This document shows positions 27,314-39,472 of a stretch of 64,000 bases of DNA, one piece after another. The notes under the pieces are model-generated. The model did no database searches, was not told where the DNA came from, and worked only from the letters and a program-made list of their open reading frames with translations. Origin of the DNA: Planctomycetota bacterium (lineage in GTDB: Bacteria > Planctomycetota > UBA1135); the NCBI GenBank assembly GCA_021776795.1, contig JAJFFC010000012.1:174724-238723 (forward strand), given 5' to 3'. Positions within the stretch are counted from its first letter, which is position 1. Every line of letters starts with the position of its first letter. The position numbers were made by a program, and so were the translations under genes.

Positions 27314-29590
27314 ATGACCATCTCGAATAACCCCAACGTGCACACCGTCTCTCGCGAGATTGGTGGTCGCACACTTACTTTAGAAACCGGTTGGGTTGCC
27401 AAACAGGCATCTGCAGCCGTCATCGTGACCTACGGCGAAACTGTCGTCATGAGCACGGTGGTAGACGGAGGCCCTAAGGACCTGCCGTTCTTCCCCCTCA
27501 CGGTCGATTACCGTGAAAAGACCTACGCCGCCGGCAAGATTCCGGGCGGTTTCTTTAAGCGCGAAGCGCGCCCATCGACCAAGGAAGTGCTGGCCATGCG
27601 CCTGCTCGACCGTTCGGTGCGCCCGATGTTCGCCCCAGGCTTCCAGAACGAAATCCAAATCATGGGTGCCGTTCTTTCCTACGATCAAGAGAACGAGCCA
27701 GAAGTGCTGTCGATGATTGGCGGCATGGCCGCAGTTCACCTGTCGCACATCCCTTTCGAGGGCGCCATGTCGGCCATTCGTTTGGGCTATCTCGACGGCA
27801 ACGTCCTGATCAACCCCACCCGCTCGATTCTCGAGCGCGATGACAACATCCTCGACCTGACCATGTCCGGCACGAATAGTGCCGTTGCCATGGTGGAAGC
27901 GGGTGCCGTCGAGCTGCCCGACGCCGAGGTGCCTAAGGTTCTCGCCGCCGGTCACGCCGTCATCCAAGACATCATTGGCATGGTCGAAGAGCTTCGTGAG
28001 AAGTGTGGCAAGGCCAAGCTTGAAGTCGAAGCTCCTTCCTTCGACGAAGAGACTCCTGCCGCCATCCTCGCCAAGTACGGCGAAGAGGCTGTGGAGCAGG
28101 TGCTCCTGACCGATGGCAAGTTCGAGCGCTACGGCGCCATCGACACTTGGGTCAAGCAGGTCATCGCGGAAATGGCGCCGGAAGGCGACAGCGAGGAAGC
28201 GCAGGCCGAGCAGTACAAGATCAAGAAAGGCGCAAAGAAGGTCGCAAACGACATCGAGCGCAAGATGACCTTGAACAACAAGCGCGTTGACGGCCGCGAT
28301 GGCAAGACCATCCGCGAAATCTGGATCGAAACTTCAATCCTGCCTCGCGCCCACGGTTCGACTTTGTTCACCCGAGGCGAAACCCAAGCCATCGTGGCCG
28401 CAACGCTCGGTTCCGCCGACGACGAAATGTGGCTCGACGGTTTGAACTCCGAGAAGCAGAAGAGCAAGTTCTACTTGCACTACAACTTCCCGCCGTTCTG
28501 CACCGGTGAAGCCAAGCCGCTGCGCGGTACTTCCCGCCGCGAGCTCGGTCACGGTGCTCTCGCTGAGCGCGCCCTGCGCCCAATGCTTCCCGACCACGTC
28601 GATTGGCCCTACACCATGCGCATCGTGTCGGACATCACCGAGTCCAACGGTTCGTCCAGTATGGCTTCGGTCTGTGGTGGCACCTTGTCGATGCTCGACG
28701 CCGGCGTGCCCATGAAGGCACCGGTTGCCGGAATCGCCATGGGCTTGATCATGGATGAGGAAACCGGCCAGTACAACGTGCTGTCCGACATCCTTGGCTC
28801 CGAAGACCACCATGGCGACATGGACTTCAAGGTCACCGGCACCGAATCCGGCATTACCGCCCTGCAAATGGACATTAAGGTCAAGGGCCTGTCCGCGGAC
28901 ATCCTTGCCGAAGCGATTGCTCAGGCGCGCGATGGTCGTTTGCACATTTTGGGCAAGATGGCCGAGGCTCTCGATGGTCCTCGTACCACCATCTCCCCAT
29001 ATGCTCCGGCGAACAAGTCGATTAAGATTCCAGCCGAGAAGATTGGCTTCTTGATTGGTCCTAAGGGCGCGAACATTCGCGAACTGCAAGAGACCTACGG
29101 CGTCAACGTCAACATCCTCGACGAAGATGGTCACGTGCAAGTTTCGGGCAACCCGTCCGAAAATGTCGATGCCTGCCTCGAGCGGATTCGTCAGCAAACT
29201 CGCGTGATTGCGATTGGCGAGCGCTTCAACGGCAAGGTCACTGGAGTCAAAGACTTCGGTTGCTTCGTCGACCTGGGCGGTGGCCAAGAGGGCATGTGCC
29301 ACATCTCGGAACTCGCTGCAGAGCGTGTCGAAGAGGTCGAGGACATCTGCAAAGAAGGCGACATGATCGACGTCATGGTGGTCAACGTGGACGAGCGTTC
29401 GGGCAAAATCCGTCTCTCGCGCCGCGTCGCCATGCTGCCGGAAGAAGAAGTTGCCGAAGCCCTCGAAGCAGCCTCTCGTCCGGCTCCACGCCGTGATGGC
29501 GGTGGCCGTGGTCGCGATGGCGGCCGGGATCGTGGTGGCCGAGGTGGCGGACGTGACCGTGACCGCGGTGGCCGTCGCGAACGCGTTTAG
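27314..29590 (+). CDS. pnp: polynucleotide phosphorylase with a C-terminal Arg/Gly-rich tail
   Basis: 758 aa. Two RNase PH domains (FFKREARPS, GSSSMASVCGG), a KH domain (IGPKGANIRELQE), an S1 domain (GKVTGVKDFGCFVDL) and the tail RRDGGGRGRDGGRDRGGRGGGRDRDRGGRRERV. Confidence 0.97.
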   Translation: MTISNNPNVHTVSREIGGRTLTLETGWVAKQASAAVIVTYGETVVMSTVVDGGPKDLPFFPLTVDYREKTYAAGKIPGGFFKREARPSTKEVLAMRLLDRSVRPMFAPGFQNEIQIMGAVLSYDQENEPEVLSMIGGMAAVHLSHIPFEGAMSAIRLGYLDGNVLINPTRSILERDDNILDLTMSGTNSAVAMVEAGAVELPDAEVPKVLAAGHAVIQDIIGMVEELREKCGKAKLEVEAPSFDEETPAAILAKYGEEAVEQVLLTDGKFERYGAIDTWVKQVIAEMAPEGDSEEAQAEQYKIKKGAKKVANDIERKMTLNNKRVDGRDGKTIREIWIETSILPRAHGSTLFTRGETQAIVAATLGSADDEMWLDGLNSEKQKSKFYLHYNFPPFCTGEAKPLRGTSRRELGHGALAERALRPMLPDHVDWPYTMRIVSDITESNGSSSMASVCGGTLSMLDAGVPMKAPVAGIAMGLIMDEETGQYNVLSDILGSEDHHGDMDFKVTGTESGITALQMDIKVKGLSADILAEAIAQARDGRLHILGKMAEALDGPRTTISPYAPANKSIKIPAEKIGFLIGPKGANIRELQETYGVNVNILDEDGHVQVSGNPSENVDACLERIRQQTRVIAIGERFNGKVTGVKDFGCFVDLGGGQEGMCHISELAAERVEEVEDICKEGDMIDVMVVNVDERSGKIRLSRRVAMLPEEEVAEALEAASRPAPRRDGGGRGRDGGRDRGGRGGGRDRDRGGRRERV

Positions 29591-29625
29591 GCTCGTGCCG
29601 AAGCTGGTGGATTTTTCCGCCAACC

Positions 29626-29660
29626 GTGGCCGTCAGCATCTGCTGGCGGCCACTTTTTTT
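29626..29660 (+). terminator. rho-independent terminator after pnp
   Basis: GTGGCCG (29626-29632) pairs with CGGCCAC (29647-29653), with extra inner pairs, followed by T7 (29654-29660). Confidence 0.75.
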
Positions 29661-29745
29661 GTCGAGCCCCTACGGCTTATGTGGTGGAGCTTGTGTAGGT
29701 TTACTGTGTTCTGTATCTAGATATCGTGGGCGCTGCACATTTTCG

Positions 29746-29775
29746 TTGCGAATTCCCAGAAATTGGTCGATAAAT
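29746..29775 (+). promoter_or_regulatory. candidate sigma70-type promoter TTGCGA-N18-ATAAAT
   Basis: Lies in a 200-bp AT-richer spacer about 90 nt upstream of the Skp-like gene. Pattern match only. Confidence 0.3.
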
Positions 29776-29863
29776 GGCCTGTTTCGCCAAAAAATGCGCC
29801 AACCTTGGTTGTTCCGCCTCGTTGTTGCCTTAGACTGAGACTATCCTCGGTCCATCCGACACC

Positions 29864-30289
29864 ATGATTCGCCTCGCTATCCTTCTCACGTCTCTGCTTC
29901 TCCTTGCCGCGCCACTGGCGCAGGCGGTGATGCCTGCAGCTGCGCCTGATGAAGTCTCGGTGAACCAGGAAGAGGTGAAGTTGGACCGCGATAAGGTCCG
30001 CCACGGCAACGCGTCCAAGTTCGACGCCAAGGGCACCTCTAAGGTCGCCACTGTGCGATCCACCGATGTCTACGACGAAATTCCGGCCTATAAGACCATC
30101 CAGAAGGAAGGCGTCGAAAAGGGCTCGGCCCGCTACAACCAGCTGATCCGCGAGGCCACCAAAGCCTACAAGGCCGCCCTGAAAAAGGTCGCCAAAGACG
30201 GTAGTTACGTTCTCATCGTGGAAGAAGGCGGCATCTCCGGTTACTCTCATGTGACCGATGCCACGGCCGACATCATTGCTGCCCTCTGA
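29864..30289 (+). CDS. small periplasmic protein, Skp/OmpH-like
   Basis: 141 aa. Signal MIRLAILLTSLLLLAAPLAQA. A Lys/Ala-rich helical segment, then a C-terminus ...GSYVLIVEEGGISGYSHVTDATADIIAAL that resembles the OmpH family end (vld...v...a.DiT..v). Confidence 0.45.
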   Translation: MIRLAILLTSLLLLAAPLAQAVMPAAAPDEVSVNQEEVKLDRDKVRHGNASKFDAKGTSKVATVRSTDVYDEIPAYKTIQKEGVEKGSARYNQLIREATKAYKAALKKVAKDGSYVLIVEEGGISGYSHVTDATADIIAAL

Positions 30290-30311
30290 GCGACCCCTAA
30301 GTCGCTCCTGC

Positions 30312-31637
30312 ATGGCCCCCTTCCTGACCCGCCTTCACCGGCGCGCGCTTGGGCTATGTGCCCTGTTGCCATTGTTGGCCTTGGGGCCTTCCTGCTCCCT
30401 GCTCTTCGACGAGGGCGATCCCTTTCCAGATGAAGAGGAGCAGGGGGCCACCGATTTCACAGGACCGCAAAGCTTTGAGGAAGAGTTCCCCTTCGTGCGA
30501 ATCACCGAGCTGGGCATCGATTATTATCGAGCGGTGCTGACTTCTCCGGTGGGATCTGGTGAAGATATAAAGAAAATATTGCTAGCGAATTCTTCCTTTT
30601 TGAAGGATGCCTCTGCCGCTCCTTCTGCCGAGGGGCAGGCAGAAAATCCTGCTCACACAGCCACTATTATGGTAATGGCGAATGGAGGAAAGGTGTTCAA
30701 CTCCAATGCCAAAGCAGACCAAATGCCCTGGACGGAGGTGGGGTCTTTCCGGGATGTTGAAGACTTGTTGGTTATTGAAGGTCCAGAACGGGACCTACGA
30801 GAAGTTTTTCAATTAATTGACTCTTGGTACAACGGTGGCCCTCAGGTTGAAATCAAGTCGGTCATCATTGAGACCATCGACACGGATGAGTTCCAGCGCG
30901 GCGTAAACCAAATTGCGGATGACAGTCCAATTTTCCGTGATGCCGATGGCGCCGCTTTCCTCCGATCAATTGGAGGCTCGTTTCCGACCGACAGTGGTGG
31001 TGGCGTTGCCCAAATCGGACTCATTGATAGTAATTTCCTCCTTGATGCTGCGATACAGCTTCTAGAAGAGGAAAGCCTTGTGGATATTGTTTCCCAGCCG
31101 TCAATCGTGACTCGGAATGGAGTGCCCGCCAGTATCGAATCCACAACAAAGGTTCCTTACCTGGAGCCAGGAGGGTTTTCTACCTCCGGAACGGCCAGTT
31201 TCACGGTCAAGACTAATGAAGTTGGCGTTAAGTTAAAAGTAACTCCATTCCTTGTTGGTGTTGACACAATTCATTTGGTGATTTTTGCCGAGGTTAGTCG
31301 AATCGGTCAGGACATTGTTATTGGAACTGACGTGAATGGCGCAATCAGTGCCCCTTCGTTCAATACTCGTTCGGCAACCACGGAGGTCTATGTTCGAAAT
31401 GGACAGACCGTGGCCATTGGCGGTCTCGTTTTGAATGAGAAGAGAACTGCAGAATCTCGCGTTCCGTTCCTCGGGAGTCTCCCCGTTCTTGGTTGGTTGT
31501 TTAGCTCAAGTGAAACCTCAAGTGTTCAGACGAAGGTGACCTTCCTAATTACACCTCAAATGAAGGAGCGCCCTAGTATCGATAGGATTGGAGAGTATTT
31601 TGACCCGACTTCAGATGGGTTGGATTCTTCGGAATAA
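30312..31637 (+). CDS. secretin (GspD/PilQ superfamily outer-membrane channel)
   Basis: 441 aa from ATG 30312 (the ORF extends to 30258 but that part overlaps the upstream gene). Signal LGLCALLPLLALGPSC. Secretin core: VEIKSVIIE, LVDIVSQPSIVTRNGVPASIES, TTEVYVRNGQTVAIGGLV, RVPFLGSLPVLGWLFSS and KVTFLITPQM. Confidence 0.85.
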   Translation: MAPFLTRLHRRALGLCALLPLLALGPSCSLLFDEGDPFPDEEEQGATDFTGPQSFEEEFPFVRITELGIDYYRAVLTSPVGSGEDIKKILLANSSFLKDASAAPSAEGQAENPAHTATIMVMANGGKVFNSNAKADQMPWTEVGSFRDVEDLLVIEGPERDLREVFQLIDSWYNGGPQVEIKSVIIETIDTDEFQRGVNQIADDSPIFRDADGAAFLRSIGGSFPTDSGGGVAQIGLIDSNFLLDAAIQLLEEESLVDIVSQPSIVTRNGVPASIESTTKVPYLEPGGFSTSGTASFTVKTNEVGVKLKVTPFLVGVDTIHLVIFAEVSRIGQDIVIGTDVNGAISAPSFNTRSATTEVYVRNGQTVAIGGLVLNEKRTAESRVPFLGSLPVLGWLFSSSETSSVQTKVTFLITPQMKERPSIDRIGEYFDPTSDGLDSSE

Positions 31638-31685
31638 TCTTGTTCATGTGGGCGTCTTGATTAAGGCCTTTCCGCTCACCAGACC

Positions 31686-33278
31686 ATGAAACTAAGCACA
31701 ACACGTCGTCAAGCCTCTCAGGAGCAGGGTGTTATCCTGATCTTGACGCTGTTTGTGCTGTTTCTGGTGATTGCGCTGGTGACCCAGCTGTCTCTCGGGG
31801 CACAAGTGGCGCACACCGCTACGGTGAACCGTGCGGTCGAGACGCGCATGCAAATGGCTGCGGTTTCTGCCGCGGAAGAAGTTCTGACCATGCTCAAGGA
31901 CGACGGCTCTGGGGCTGGTTCCTCTGGCCTGTCCAGTGCTTTGGCGGGGCCCACTGCCTTCCCCGGCATGGATGGCGCCAACATGGGAGATACGGGCTTT
32001 CCCGGAGCCGGCGACCAAGGTGACCCTAACGCCGAAGGCGAAGAGGGCGAAGGTGAAGAGGCCGACGCCACGCAAAGTGACTCCTTCGAAGATGCTTGGG
32101 CGCGTCCCATGCGTTTGTCGATGGGGGACCTGGAGATCACCACTTTCGTGCAAGATGAAAATGGCAAGTTCAACATCTTGGCGCTGATCTCCGGCGGTCC
32201 TGAAGATCGGGAAGAGGCCTTTGAGCGCACGGTGCGCATTTTGGATCGCTTGCGCGACGAGTTTGACGACGACCTGCAGGAGTTTGAAGCGCGCACGATG
32301 GTCGAAAACATCCGTCGTTATATGGAAACGGACAGTCGCACCATCGACTTGCCGCTAATGCCGCGCAACTCCCTTGCCGACGAAGACCTTGACACACGCC
32401 TGCAATCCTTGGAGGAGCTCCTCCTGGTTGAGGGTGTCACTCCCGAGTTGTACTACGATCAGCTTCGCGATCGTGATCAGATTGCGCCTGGGCTGGAAAC
32501 CGTGTTCACGATTTGGACCATGCCGGAATATGACCCGCAGGCACCTAGTGGCAGCCTTGGCGAGGAATCTTCCGCAGAGAGTTCCGGTCAGGCAGATGGC
32601 TTGGGCAACGGCGCCGCGCCCTCTGGAGCCGATTCCGGTGACCCTTTAGACCCCAACCGCATCGCCGAAGGCGAAGGCGGTCTCGAAGGCGCACTCGACG
32701 GCGACCCGCCTATCGGCCCCTTGATCAACCTCAACACCGCACACCCTGCGGTGCTCTACGGCATGCTGCCGACCACACGCCTGCCCCCGGTCAAGATCAC
32801 GAATCTGTTGGAGTGGCGCAACGAGACCGATGAAGAAGCCCTGGCCGAACAAGATTCCGCCGATGTCGATCCTCAGGAAGTCGAGTTGCGTGAGTCGGTG
32901 TATGGCGTCGACGAACCCGAGCCCAAAAACTTTTTAAAGAGCTTGGAAGAGCTCGCCGAAATCGATGGATTTCAGGCCGAGCAACTCGATGCCGAGCAGC
33001 AGCAAGAACTGCAAACCCTGTTCGGCGTGCAGTCCGATGTCTTCCGCGTGTGCATCTATCTCCGGCAAAGTGGCCAAGGCGAGTGGGAGCCTGAACGGCG
33101 CTACCAAGAGGAGCCGGTACGCACCCTGCGCCTTGAAGCCACGGTTTGGCGCCGCATGGCTGGCGAAGAGGTCAAGATCCTGTTCCTTGAGCCGTGGCAT
33201 GAAGTGCCGTACACGCGTTGGCGCATTCCTGATTTCCAGGACGACCTGCCGCCGTTCCGGGCGCCCCGGTACGAGTAG
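31686..33278 (+). CDS. GspK-like minor pseudopilin, enlarged
   Basis: 530 aa. N-terminal QEQGVILILTLFVLFLVIALVTQL, ITTFVQDENGKFNILAL (GspK D-E-x-G-K-x-N-I-N type), LINLNTAHPAVL, and an HhH-like SLEELAEIDGF. Two acidic low-complexity inserts. Confidence 0.65.
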   Translation: MKLSTTRRQASQEQGVILILTLFVLFLVIALVTQLSLGAQVAHTATVNRAVETRMQMAAVSAAEEVLTMLKDDGSGAGSSGLSSALAGPTAFPGMDGANMGDTGFPGAGDQGDPNAEGEEGEGEEADATQSDSFEDAWARPMRLSMGDLEITTFVQDENGKFNILALISGGPEDREEAFERTVRILDRLRDEFDDDLQEFEARTMVENIRRYMETDSRTIDLPLMPRNSLADEDLDTRLQSLEELLLVEGVTPELYYDQLRDRDQIAPGLETVFTIWTMPEYDPQAPSGSLGEESSAESSGQADGLGNGAAPSGADSGDPLDPNRIAEGEGGLEGALDGDPPIGPLINLNTAHPAVLYGMLPTTRLPPVKITNLLEWRNETDEEALAEQDSADVDPQEVELRESVYGVDEPEPKNFLKSLEELAEIDGFQAEQLDAEQQQELQTLFGVQSDVFRVCIYLRQSGQGEWEPERRYQEEPVRTLRLEATVWRRMAGEEVKILFLEPWHEVPYTRWRIPDFQDDLPPFRAPRYE

Positions 33279-37857: not shown

Positions 37858-38628
37858 ATGGTTCGCAGAGCGCATCGCGATAAGAGCAGCAACAAAGCCC
37901 TCAACCGGCTTTGGGGTGAGTATCGCGCCAGCGAACGAATCGAGGATCGCAACGCACTGATTGAGCACTACCGCCCTTACGCCACCATGGTGGCGCGGCG
38001 GGTGAAAGCGAAACTACCGCGTTCGGTAGAAATGGGTGACCTCGAAAGCGCCGGCGACGTTGGCTTAATCCAAGCCATCCAAAGTTTTGATCCCCAACGC
38101 GGGGTTCCCTTTGAGGCCTTCTGCGAGTTCCGTGTGCGCGGCGCCATTCTCGACGAACTGCGCCGTCACGATTGGGTGCCGCGGCCAGTGCGCAACCGAC
38201 TCAACCGCCTCAAGGCGTTGAAGGAAGAAATGCGCCGCGAGCTCGAACGCGAAGCCACCGAAGTTGAGTTGGCTACACGCTTAGAGTTGAGCCTAGAAGA
38301 TTTCCATCGCCTCTATGGCGGCGGTCGTGACACTCCGGTCCTCGCTGGCGGGAAACCCGGCGAGCCAGGTGAAGCCGATGGCTCTTTAGACTTCTTTGAA
38401 GACCCGCGTTCCGATGCACCCAGCGACGGCGCTCATTCGCGTGAGTTGTTGGAGTTGATTGCGCAAACTCTCGAAGACGAGGAGCGCGAAATCCTTTATA
38501 TGCGCTTCTTCCTCGATTACTCGCTACGGGACATCGGGGAGATTCGCGGCATTTCGCAATCGCGTGTGTCGAAGATCCTCGGGCGAATCATGGAGCGGAT
38601 TAAGGTCCGCTTCGAAGAGAAGATTTAA
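37858..38628 (+). CDS. fliA: sigma-28-type RNA polymerase sigma factor (FliA/WhiG family)
   Basis: 256 aa. Region 2 DLESAGDVGLIQAIQSFDPQRGVPFEAFCEFRVRGAILDELRRHDWVPR. Region 4 HTH YSLRDIGEIRGISQSRVSKIL. Confidence 0.8.
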   Translation: MVRRAHRDKSSNKALNRLWGEYRASERIEDRNALIEHYRPYATMVARRVKAKLPRSVEMGDLESAGDVGLIQAIQSFDPQRGVPFEAFCEFRVRGAILDELRRHDWVPRPVRNRLNRLKALKEEMRRELEREATEVELATRLELSLEDFHRLYGGGRDTPVLAGGKPGEPGEADGSLDFFEDPRSDAPSDGAHSRELLELIAQTLEDEEREILYMRFFLDYSLRDIGEIRGISQSRVSKILGRIMERIKVRFEEKI

Positions 38629-38647
38629 GGTAAGCTCGAAAGCTAAC

Positions 38648-39472
38648 TTAGCGCCCGCGAGCAAGCACGTGGTGCGGTAGCACTTCTTCCAATACTCGGC
38701 GCAATTCCGCCAGCGGAATCATATTGGGGCCATCTGAAGGCGAAGTCAGCGGATCAGGGTGGGTCTCGACAAAGAAACCATCAAAGCCAAGGGCCGCAGC
38801 GGCTTTCATGAGTAAAGGCGCGCGTTGCCAATCGCCGCCAGTTTTGCCACTCCCGCTTCCAGGTTGTTGCACGGCGTGAGTGGCATCAATCACCAGCGGT
38901 AGTCCTGCTTCACGGAGTTCCGGGAGCGAAGCAAAGTCGACGACCAAACGCCCGTAGCCAAAGCTGGCGCCACGATCGGTCAAGATGACTTTGGGGTTGC
39001 CCGCCGAGGTGACTTTTGCTGCAGCATGCTTGAGGTCGGGTGGTGCCAAGAACTGACCCTTCTTGATATTGACCGTGCGCCCAGTGGCCGCAGCCGCCTC
39101 GAGCAAATCGGTTTGCCGACACAGGAAGGCAGGGATTTGCAGGACATCCACGACCTGGGCGACAGCGGCGCATTGCTCCGGCAGGTGCACATCGGTCAGC
39201 AATGGAGCGCCGGTGCGCTCGCGCACCTGTTCGAGAATGCGCAGGCCTTCCTCCAAACCAATCCCACGGCCGGAGCCACTCGAGGTGCGGTTGGCCTTAT
39301 CAAAGCTGGCCTTGAACACCCATTGCACGGCAAGTCCATCGAGTTCGGCGGCAATGCGCTCTGCAATCTCGACAGTGTGCTCACCCTCAATCACGCATGG
39401 GCCTGCAATTAGGAGTGGCGGGCGGTCGCCGCCAACCAGGAGCCCAGGAACAATTTCTACGGGAGTGACCAT
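38648..39472 (-). CDS. kdsA: 3-deoxy-8-phosphooctulonate synthase
   Basis: 274 aa. KASFDKANRTS, LQIPAFLCRQTDL, IDATHAVQQPG and FVETHPDP. Confidence 0.95.
   Translation of the reverse strand: MVTPVEIVPGLLVGGDRPPLLIAGPCVIEGEHTVEIAERIAAELDGLAVQWVFKASFDKANRTSSGSGRGIGLEEGLRILEQVRERTGAPLLTDVHLPEQCAAVAQVVDVLQIPAFLCRQTDLLEAAAATGRTVNIKKGQFLAPPDLKHAAAKVTSAGNPKVILTDRGASFGYGRLVVDFASLPELREAGLPLVIDATHAVQQPGSGSGKTGGDWQRAPLLMKAAAALGFDGFFVETHPDPLTSPSDGPNMIPLAELRRVLEEVLPHHVLARGR

What the first reader, a model, noticed from the sequence alone, without database searches (positions are those of the whole stretch)
30540..31720. Sharp low-GC / low-GC3 island confined to the body of the secretin gene (mosaic ORF)
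Flanking 60-nt lines are GC-rich: 42/60 at 30301-30360 and 38/60 at 31801-31860. Between about 30540 and 31720 my hand counts fall to 23/60 (30541-30600), 28/60 (30661-30720), 28/60 (30781-30840), 24/60 (31201-31260) and 24/60 (31261-31320). Only one line (30601-30660, 36/60) stays near background. Codon third positions flip to A/T, and codons that are nearly absent elsewhere in the window become common (AGA, AGG, ATA, CTA, TTA, AAA, ATT, GTT, TCA). The shift begins about 230 nt inside the ORF, after a GC-rich segment encoding the signal peptide and an acidic linker. It fades about 35 nt into the next gene. The periplasmic domains and secretin core therefore look like recently imported DNA fused in frame to a native-composition 5' end. 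I see no flanking direct repeats, integrase or tRNA.
Basis: seen in the sequence. Interest (0 to 1): 0.6.

Follow-up and report, generated by a model that had tools for sequence, protein, structure and literature searches.

The report
Swapped low-GC body of a secretin gene
In this uncultured marine planctomycete, everything after the first 63 codons of an outer-membrane secretin gene has been replaced by a very divergent, AT-richer version of the same gene, and the same swap recurs in related genomes, so this is a real but familiar kind of recombination mosaic.

Summary
All eight hand counts are exact. In-frame GC3 of the secretin body (30498-31634) is 0.475. The lowest of 506 equal-sized in-frame windows from the other 43 genes is 0.612 (mean 0.69).

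The cause is allelic replacement by homologous recombination, not a fusion of unrelated parts. Six related Planctomycetota assemblies keep the same gene order: pnp, Skp-like, secretin, GspK-like, purA. Their flanking genes are 90-99% identical in protein, but the secretin is only 61-85% identical. Fourfold-degenerate sites in the body are randomised between every allele pair.

Trees disagree. In the flanks the window pairs with L030; in the body it groups with L023 and L025. Best-fit breakpoints are 30432-30499 and 31655-31726. The 5' junction lies at the codons of a conserved EEEFPFVR motif.

An independent assembly is 100% identical across both junctions. A second clade (L006, L036) shows the same head/body swap with a low-GC body.

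"Recent" import is unproven, because no donor was found and every allele in mid-GC genomes is GC-depressed. Phage pressure as the driver is inference only.

The parts
29864..30289 (+). Skp/OmpH-like periplasmic chaperone gene (141 aa). Its 3' end serves as the upstream conserved anchor.
   Evidence: Sub-threshold Pfam OmpH match (30 bits against a cut-off of 32.4). It occupies the same position in all relatives. It is 91-96% identical in protein to the five mid-GC close relatives and 88% to the high-GC L031. Nucleotide identity at 30189-30300 is 92-99%.
30312..30500 (+). Native 'head' of the secretin, residues 1-63. It holds a signal peptide with a conserved Cys28 (probable lipoprotein), an acidic linker and the conserved motif EEEFPFVR (30477-30500).
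   Evidence: Head GC3 is 0.72, equal to background. Nucleotide identity to close relatives is 78-87%, and the nearest head is P0004/L026 at 92% protein identity. The motif residues P60 is invariant and V62 and R63 nearly invariant (at least 90%) across 31 family members.
30501..31637 (+). Replaced low-GC 'body' of the secretin, residues 64-441 plus the stop codon. It covers the periplasmic N-domains and the secretin pore domain (Pfam PF00263 at about 31062-31559).
   Evidence: Body GC3 is 0.475-0.48. Nucleotide identity to all relatives is 59-70%. Fourfold-site mismatch is 0.69-0.73, close to the random expectation of 0.74-0.76. The Secretin domain scores 140.7 bits. Profile and fold searches hit GspD and PilQ.
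30432..31655 (+). Divergent tract relative to the nearest genomic relative, L030, from a two-breakpoint likelihood fit.
   Evidence: Mismatch is 0.39 inside and 0.10 outside. Against L026 the tract is 30499-31720, against L023 it is 30494-31722, and against L029 it is 30445-31726.
31638..31685 (+). Intergenic spacer. It is nearly identical in the window, L030 and L025 from about 31652 to 31685, while the first ~14 nt after the stop differ; its AT-richness is native.
   Evidence: Alignment block. GC is 0.47-0.53 in all four genomes at 31680-31710.
31686..33278 (+). GspK-like minor pseudopilin gene (530 aa). Its 5' part serves as the downstream conserved anchor.
   Evidence: Sub-threshold matches to T2SSK_1st (23.7 bits against 26.2) and to NCBIfam GspK (52.7 against 130). 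It is 92-94% identical in protein to L026, L029 and L030. Nucleotide identity to L026 at 31740-31800 is 90-96%.

Best explanation
The secretin gene sits at a fixed place in the core genome, between a Skp-like gene and a GspK-like gene. It is a hypervariable replacement locus. Homologous recombination has exchanged the segment from just after the EEEFPFVR motif (about 30500) to the stop codon or spacer (about 31655-31720) for a very divergent allele of the same gene. The crossovers used the conserved flanks: upstream, the Skp 3' end and the secretin head; downstream, the spacer and the GspK 5' end.

The window carries a 'type A' body, while its nearest genomic relatives carry 'type B' bodies. 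The body's low GC3 and foreign codon usage most likely reflect long residence of that allele lineage in lower-GC Planctomycetota before it arrived here.

Shown: the compositional step, the divergence island, the tree incongruence, the breakpoints, and recurrence in a second clade. Inferred: the donor's identity and GC content, the timing, and the selective driver. A plausible driver is negative frequency-dependent selection on an outer-membrane component, for example by phages or other surface-targeting agents.
For: Composition.

Conserved synteny in six close relatives and across the wider family.

Flanks against body: flanking genes are 87-99% identical in protein to the five mid-GC relatives (72-88% to the high-GC L031), with dS 0.16-1.5 (up to 2.1 to L031). 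The secretin is 60-80% identical with pS 0.70-0.82. Fourfold-site mismatch in the body is 0.60-0.79 for all 21 allele pairs, against a random expectation of 0.64-0.77 and 0.09-0.59 in the flanks. Nucleotide identity falls to 0.38-0.77 only between about 30490 and 31650.

Incongruence: in the flanks the window is sister to L030 with L025 as outgroup. In the body the grouping is (win,(L023,L025)) against ((L029,L030),L026). L026's body is closest to the distant high-GC L031 at 83% protein identity.

Breakpoints coincide with the GC3 step.

The secretin is the least conserved of the syntenic proteins in 9 of the 12 close pairs and among the three least in all 12. In another pair (L001-L002) it is 85% identical against a neighbour median of 82%, so this is not an intrinsically fast-evolving protein.

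Second clade: L006 and L036 align to L002 at 80-86% on both sides, but the secretin body does not align. L006's head is nearest to P0014 at 78%. Its body is nearest to P0022 at 84%, with body GC3 0.42 against 0.63 for the background.

The body's codon usage fits lower-GC relatives' genomes better than its own genome. There are no mobile-element hallmarks.
Against: No donor or near-identical allele in another background was found; the nearest body is 79% identical in protein and saturated at synonymous sites. Direction and date of transfer are therefore unknown.

Every allele in mid-GC genomes is GC-depressed. This could instead reflect a locus-specific process, such as AT drift in alleles too divergent to recombine.

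Amino-acid variation is spread over the whole body, including the periplasmic domains, and pN is much smaller than pS. Nothing points specifically to surface-loop diversifying selection.

All sequences are metagenome assemblies, and no read-level check was possible.
Confidence: 0.8

Rival explanations
1. Assembly or binning chimera. The MAG contig joins the flanks of one strain to the secretin body of a co-occurring strain, so the mosaic does not exist in any one cell.
For: Hypervariable loci are classic places for strain-level misassembly in metagenomes. The window is from a MAG contig (sources ncbi and Logan).
Against: A Logan contig assembled separately from run SRR15505515 is 100% identical over 29869-32341 and spans both junctions. 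It may derive from the same reads. The same flank/body discordance appears in six other assemblies from different samples. Two alleles were recovered identically from two or three independent samples: L023/L024 and L026/L027/L028. Even if the contig were chimeric, the locus would still be hypervariable in the population.
Confidence: 0.05
2. In-situ accelerated evolution without exchange. Relaxed or positive selection together with AT-biased mutation has driven the body apart in each lineage.
For: All alleles in mid-GC genomes have reduced GC3. The nearest alleles are still very divergent.
Against: Synonymous sites are saturated only inside sharp boundaries, while adjacent codons of the same gene are not: head fourfold mismatch is 0.28-0.48 among the mid-GC genomes. 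Protein-level selection cannot produce this. Body and flank trees conflict. L026's body is nearest to the distant genome L031, and L006's body is nearest to another clade's. The pair L001-L002 shows normal conservation.
Confidence: 0.07
3. Selected codon usage. Low GC3 and rare codons in the body are maintained to slow translation, lower expression, or aid export and assembly of the secretin.
For: The secretin body has lower GC3 than its neighbours in most family members examined.
Against: The dip is absent in L031 (0.93 against about 0.91), L004, L017, L003 and L001. Its size varies between alleles within one clade (0.45-0.62). It coincides exactly with the divergence and recombination boundaries. 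On its own it does not explain the tree incongruence.
Confidence: 0.05
4. Capture of a mobile or phage secretin, such as filamentous-phage pIV, or a genomic island inserted by site-specific recombination.
For: The protein is about the size of pIV (441 aa) and the segment is compositionally foreign.
Against: The best phage matches are at most 30% identical and cover only the pore domain. There is no tRNA and no direct repeat, and no integrase appeared among the scanned neighbours. The gene occupies the same core-genome slot in more than 25 related assemblies.
Confidence: 0.02

Closest known systems
Replacement flexible genomic islands and hypervariable surface loci exchanged by homologous recombination (for example the glycotype clusters of marine Alteromonas, PMC4898812)
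   Same: The chromosomal position is fixed and the flanks are conserved. Versions in closely related genomes are very divergent. Exchange crosses clonal-frame and species boundaries by homologous recombination. No integrase or tRNA is involved. The product belongs to the cell envelope.
   Different: Here the swapped unit is part of a single gene (about 1.15 kb, residues 64-441), not a multi-gene polysaccharide cluster. The versions are clearly homologous (58-88% protein identity) rather than unrelated. No near-identical allele shared between backgrounds was found. A role as phage receptor is not shown.
Mosaic genes with a swapped internal or C-terminal segment (for example the hypervariable central region of the Haemophilus influenzae mod gene, PMC1557822; Pseudomonas aeruginosa pilA allele groups and Neisseria mosaic penA, from my own knowledge)
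   Same: The gene ends are conserved around a highly divergent segment. The alleles are older than the host lineages. Crossovers lie in conserved sequence. Composition is atypical.
   Different: The protein concerned is a secretin pore, normally regarded as a conserved machine component. The junction recurs at one short conserved motif (EEEFPFVR) in two separate clades.
T2SS secretin GspD and T4P secretin PilQ
   Same: A C-terminal secretin pore domain is present (Pfam 140.7 bits). The best solved-structure matches are ExeD, PulD, GspD and PilQ. A GspK-like pseudopilin gene lies next door.
   Different: The protein is short (441 aa). No N0 or Secretin_N domains were detected. It scores below every NCBIfam equivalog cut-off (GspD 147 against 351 bits). 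It has a probable lipoprotein leader. No gspC-M or pil operon is present in the 30 window proteins scanned against Pfam (about 400-40400).

Membership tests
Secretin superfamily (PF00263) | C-terminal secretin pore domain scoring above the curated threshold | tested here: met
   Pfam Secretin scores 140.7 bits against a cut-off of 27.5, E = 4.5e-41. The family profile hits 22 solved secretins, the best being 6i1x ExeD at 8.7e-35. The top 40 Foldseek hits are all secretins, although the model is only moderate (pLDDT 65).
Secretin superfamily (PF00263) | Export signal for outer-membrane targeting | tested here: inconclusive
   The sequence shows a basic n-region, a hydrophobic stretch and a Cys that is conserved in most of the family. 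No signal-peptide or lipobox predictor was available. The window's box (G-P-S-C) is not canonical.
T2SS secretin GspD (TIGR02517 equivalog) | Full-length score above the equivalog cut-off, with N0-N3 periplasmic domains | tested here: not met
   The score is 147.4 bits against a cut-off of 351.35, and the match covers only residues 150-416. No PF21305 or PF03958 domains appear in this protein or in its 32 closest orthologues.
T2SS secretin GspD (TIGR02517 equivalog) | Encoded in a gsp operon with an ATPase, platform proteins and pseudopilins | tested here: not met
   Only a sub-threshold GspK-like gene is adjacent. The other scanned window genes (30 proteins, about 400-40400) are housekeeping. 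The rest of the genome was not available.
Replacement-type hypervariable locus / recombination mosaic gene | Same chromosomal slot with highly similar flanks in related genomes | tested here: met
   Synteny runs Big_5, rpsO, pnp, skp, secretin, gspK-like, purA, uppS, cdsA, phoH. Neighbour proteins have a median identity of 90-97%.
Replacement-type hypervariable locus / recombination mosaic gene | Divergence island with sharp boundaries and synonymous saturation | tested here: met
Replacement-type hypervariable locus / recombination mosaic gene | Phylogenetic incongruence between the segment and its flanks | tested here: met
   NJ bootstrap trees and identity matrices. Head and body have different nearest neighbours.
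Replacement-type hypervariable locus / recombination mosaic gene | Near-identical allele in different genomic backgrounds, as direct proof of recent exchange | tested here: not met
   The nearest body to the window's is 79% identical in protein and 68-70% in nucleotides. The closest cross-background pairs are L026-L031 at 83% and L006-P0022 at 84%.
Replacement-type hypervariable locus / recombination mosaic gene | Product is a surface determinant under frequency-dependent selection, such as a phage receptor | not testable with these tools
   An outer-membrane location is inferred from homology only. There are no phage-host data. Variation is not concentrated in obvious exposed loops.
Integrase-mediated genomic island | Integrase or recombinase, tRNA or att site, flanking direct repeats | tested here: not met
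   There are 0 tRNAs in 64 kb and 0 direct-repeat families in 29500-32500. No integrase was found among the scanned neighbours.
Filamentous-phage pIV secretin | Close similarity to phage-encoded secretins, or a phage context | tested here: not met
   The best hit in the 'phages' collection is 29.7% identical over 59% of the protein. Two IMG/VR contigs match at 27-30%. The context is core-genome.

The most novel reading that the evidence does not exclude
The secretin of these marine Planctomycetota may be built as two evolutionary modules. The first is a host-bound head: leader, lipobox, acidic linker and EEEFPFVR. It stays with the genome and may serve as the targeting or assembly adaptor. The second is an exchangeable pore body that circulates among genus-level lineages as a pool of ancient alleles. 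The EEEFPFVR-coding stretch acts as the recurrent crossover anchor. The exchange would be driven by frequency-dependent pressure from phages or other agents that recognise the secretin. That would make a secretion pore, rather than a glycan or pilin, a surface-identity determinant. The persistently low GC3 of the bodies would then mark a pool that does not equilibrate with any host.
Probability: 0.25. Interest if true: 0.6.

Novelty: new member of a known kind. Interest (0 to 1): 0.4.

Why it matters
Secretins are usually treated as conserved structural parts of secretion and pilus machines. Here one is the most variable gene in an otherwise highly conserved core-genome neighbourhood. Its pore-forming body has been exchanged across lineages while its leader stays native, and this happened at the same junction in two clades.

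If the pattern holds up, three things follow:
- It marks a locus of strong population-level selection in an uncultured marine planctomycete group.
- It suggests a functional split between the head and the body of this unusual short secretin.
- It provides a natural marker for strain typing and for looking for phages or other agents that target the pore.

It is also a clean example of how an intragenic GC3 step can flag a recombination mosaic.

Tried and rejected
1. Donor search. The 5.8-billion-protein search found nothing closer than 80%. The genome scan found at best 52%. A metagenome scan anchored on the Skp-like neighbour returned only a contig already in hand. No donor was identified.

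2. Phage origin. The phage collection and IMG/VR gave at most 30% identity. Rejected.

3. Paralogue-driven gene conversion. There is no second secretin or similar DNA in the window. The rest of the genome could not be tested.

4. Expression-linked codon bias. Rejected because the step is intragenic and is absent in several orthologues.

5. Subtype assignment. NCBIfam, the PDB profile search and Foldseek place the protein in the secretin superfamily but not in any subtype. The monomer AF2 model is only moderate (pLDDT 65), so I did not map variable residues onto a pore model.

6. dN/dS for selection. Synonymous sites are saturated in every pair.

7. Literature. Searches for secretin or PilQ allelic replacement found only general analogues.
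Full report
**Observation.** In 200-nt windows, GC falls from 0.62 to 0.44-0.53 between about 30400 and 31800 and returns to 0.58-0.64 afterwards. No other 1-kb bin of the 64-kb window (mean GC 0.593) is as low.

The ORF is 30258-31637. The annotated protein (P0001, 441 aa) starts at the ATG at 30312, just after the stop of the upstream gene. In frame, GC3 is 0.63-0.80 over the first ~80 codons. It then falls to 0.30-0.57, with two 30-codon windows reaching 0.63-0.70, through to the stop.

Body GC3 is 0.475. The 506 equally long in-frame windows from the other 43 genes have mean 0.69 and minimum 0.612. All 100-codon windows of the body lie below the lowest of 742 windows elsewhere. The tetranucleotide profile of the 1.2-kb window at 30601 is the most deviant of 210 windows.

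Codon preferences shift towards CGA, GGA, GTT, AGT, TCT, ACT, AAT and ATA. There is no tRNA and no direct repeat, and no integrase among the scanned neighbours.

**What the gene is.** The protein has a Pfam Secretin domain (140.7 bits). A profile of its family hits solved GspD, ExeD, PulD and PilQ secretins. All significant Foldseek matches are secretins, although the monomer model is only moderate (pLDDT 65).

It falls below every NCBIfam subtype cut-off (GspD 147 against 351 bits). It also lacks the detectable N0 and Secretin_N domains that typical GspD and PilQ hits carry. I therefore file it as a secretin-superfamily member of unassigned subtype.

About 32 full-length orthologues exist, all from Planctomycetota MAGs or metagenomes. 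They are collinear from a leader with a conserved Cys, through an acidic linker and a conserved FEEEFPFVR motif, to the C-terminus.

The neighbourhood is core genome: Big_5 protein, rpsO, pnp, a Skp/OmpH-like gene (29864-30289), the secretin, a GspK-like gene (31686-33278), then purA, uppS, cdsA, phoH and ybeY. This order is kept in every related contig long enough to show it.

**The decisive comparison.** Six related assemblies carry the same locus: L023, L025, L026, L029, L030 and the high-GC L031.
- Against the window, flanking genes are 87-99% identical in protein to the five mid-GC relatives and 72-88% to L031, with dS 0.16-1.5 (up to 2.1 to L031).
- The secretin is 60-80% identical, with pS 0.70-0.82.
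- In 90-nt windows, identity to the relatives is about 0.9 or higher over 30040-30340 and about 0.8-0.9 beyond 31740 (except to L025). It drops to 0.38-0.77 between about 30490 and 31650 in every pairwise comparison, including those among the relatives themselves.
- Fourfold-degenerate sites in the body differ at 0.60-0.79 in all 21 pairs. That matches the random expectation of 0.64-0.77. The flanks show 0.09-0.59, and the head of the same gene shows 0.28-0.48 among the mid-GC genomes.

A step of this kind at synonymous sites inside one reading frame cannot come from protein-level selection or from expression level. It means the body alleles are far older than the genomes that carry them.

**Incongruence and breakpoints.** By flanking genes, the window's nearest relative is L030, followed by L026. 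L025 is the outgroup of the mid-GC set and L031 is the most distant.

By secretin body the grouping is (window,(L023,L025)) against ((L029,L030),L026). L026's body is closest to that of distant L031 at 83% protein identity.

The head (residues 1-63) of the window protein is closest to P0004/L026 at 92%. The body is closest to P0002 and P0003 at about 79%, and is only 60% identical to P0004.

A two-breakpoint likelihood fit gives these divergent tracts:
- against L030: 30432-31655
- against L026: 30499-31720
- against L023: 30494-31722
- against L029: 30445-31726

The 5' junction falls on the codons of EEEFPFVR (30477-30500), exactly where GC3 steps down. Against L030 and L025, identity resumes about 15 nt after the stop codon. 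The spacer and the first codons of the GspK-like gene are AT-rich in all relatives.

**Not an intrinsic property and not an artefact.** In the window's clade the secretin is the least conserved syntenic protein in 9 of 12 pairs and among the three least in all 12 (61-85% against neighbour medians of 90-97%). In another clade (L001-L002) it is as conserved as its neighbours (85% against 82%).

The GC3 dip is absent in L031 (0.93 against about 0.91) and in L001, L003, L004 and L017. It varies by allele within the window's clade, against a background of about 0.67:

| Locus | Body GC3 |
|---|---|
| window | 0.48 |
| L023 | 0.45 |
| L025 | 0.51 |
| L029 | 0.57-0.58 |
| L026 | 0.61-0.62 |
| L030 | 0.62 |

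A separately assembled Logan contig is 100% identical to window 29869-32341 and spans both junctions. Other alleles were recovered identically from two or three independent samples. Read-level confirmation was not possible.

**Recurrence.** In a second clade, L006 and L036 align to L002 at 80-86% on both sides of the secretin, but the body does not align at all (L006 10167-11350). L006's neighbours are closest to L002 and L001 (median 88% and 83% protein identity). Its secretin head is closest to P0014, the L002 protein, at 78%. Its body is closest to P0022 (84%) and P0025 (75%), and only about 50% identical to P0013; P0014 is not among its eight best body matches. The junction is again at EEEFPFVR. 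Body GC3 is 0.42 against a background of 0.63.

**Mechanism.** The supported mechanism is double-crossover homologous recombination, or gene conversion, that replaces the orthologous segment. The conserved sequences on either side act as anchors.

Why the bodies are AT-richer than their hosts is not settled. The body's synonymous codon choice fits the genomes of lower-GC relatives (GC3 0.46-0.51) better than its own. The three type A alleles are mutually saturated yet all sit at GC3 0.45-0.51. This suggests they spent most of their history in a lower-GC setting and arrived separately.

The alternative is a locus-specific AT drift in alleles too divergent to recombine with the population. That cannot be excluded, because every allele in mid-GC genomes is depressed to some degree.

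The selective driver is inference. An outer-membrane pore is a plausible target for phages or other surface-recognising agents, and replacement loci of marine bacteria are interpreted this way (PMC4898812). However, variation here is spread over the whole body, and purifying selection dominates (pN 0.08-0.28 with saturated pS).

**Comparison and verdict.** The pattern matches known hypervariable replacement loci and mosaic genes. Examples are the glycotype islands of Alteromonas (PMC4898812) and the hypervariable central region of H. influenzae mod (PMC1557822). From my own knowledge, pilA allele groups and mosaic penA are further examples.

What differs is the protein concerned (a secretin pore), the intragenic head/body split, and the recurrent junction at one motif. 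My literature searches found no description of secretin-body swapping. Phage or island origin is rejected.

The gene is a mosaic with a native head and a foreign-composition body. It arose by allelic replacement within an orthologous family, 'recent' is unproven, and the feature is shared by relatives. I rate it a new member of a known kind, with moderate interest.

Noticed in passing
L006:9944-11350, L036:1391-2838 and L002 (same locus): A second clade shows the same head/body swap at the EEEFPFVR junction. Flanks are 80-86% identical in nucleotides to L002, but the secretin body cannot be aligned. L006's body GC3 is 0.42 against a background of 0.63.
   Followed up: yes
window:29436-29520 (3' tail of pnp): This GC-rich tail (0.67-0.75) is 99-100% identical to L026 but only about 70% identical to L023 and L025. 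Upstream of it, all three are about 90% identical to the window. It looks like another small recombination patch.
   Followed up: no
window:31890-32010 (inside the GspK-like gene): This patch is 46-69% identical in nucleotides to L025 (46-50% over 31920-32010) but 76-83% identical to L023 and L026. It is a local variable region in the neighbouring pseudopilin-like gene and does not track the secretin allele type.
   Followed up: no
L031 (whole locus): L031 has the same gene order and fairly similar proteins (Skp 88%, PurA 82% identity to the window). Its GC3 is about 0.91 against 0.68 in the window's clade, which is a large GC shift between related lineages.
   Followed up: partly
L029:18661-19401: L029 carries an extra 246-aa ORF with no Pfam hit between the sigma-factor gene and the DAHP synthase gene. 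It is absent from the window (38628-38648) and from L025 and L026.
   Followed up: no
window:29717-30313 (-): This 198-aa minus-strand ORF has no Pfam match. It overlaps the conserved plus-strand Skp-like gene at 29864-30289 and is most likely a spurious shadow ORF.
   Followed up: partly
window:16549-17589 (-): This is a D12-class N6-adenine DNA methyltransferase gene next to trkH and trkA. No restriction enzyme is evident among its neighbours, so it may be an orphan methyltransferase.
   Followed up: no
window:31652-31730 and the homologous stretches of L023, L025, L026, L029 and L030: The spacer and the start of the GspK-like gene occur as two haplotypes. The window, L030 and L025 share one; L026, L029 and L023 differ from it, though they also diverge among themselves. 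This split does not match the secretin body types, so additional independent crossovers have occurred at the 3' junction.
   Followed up: partly
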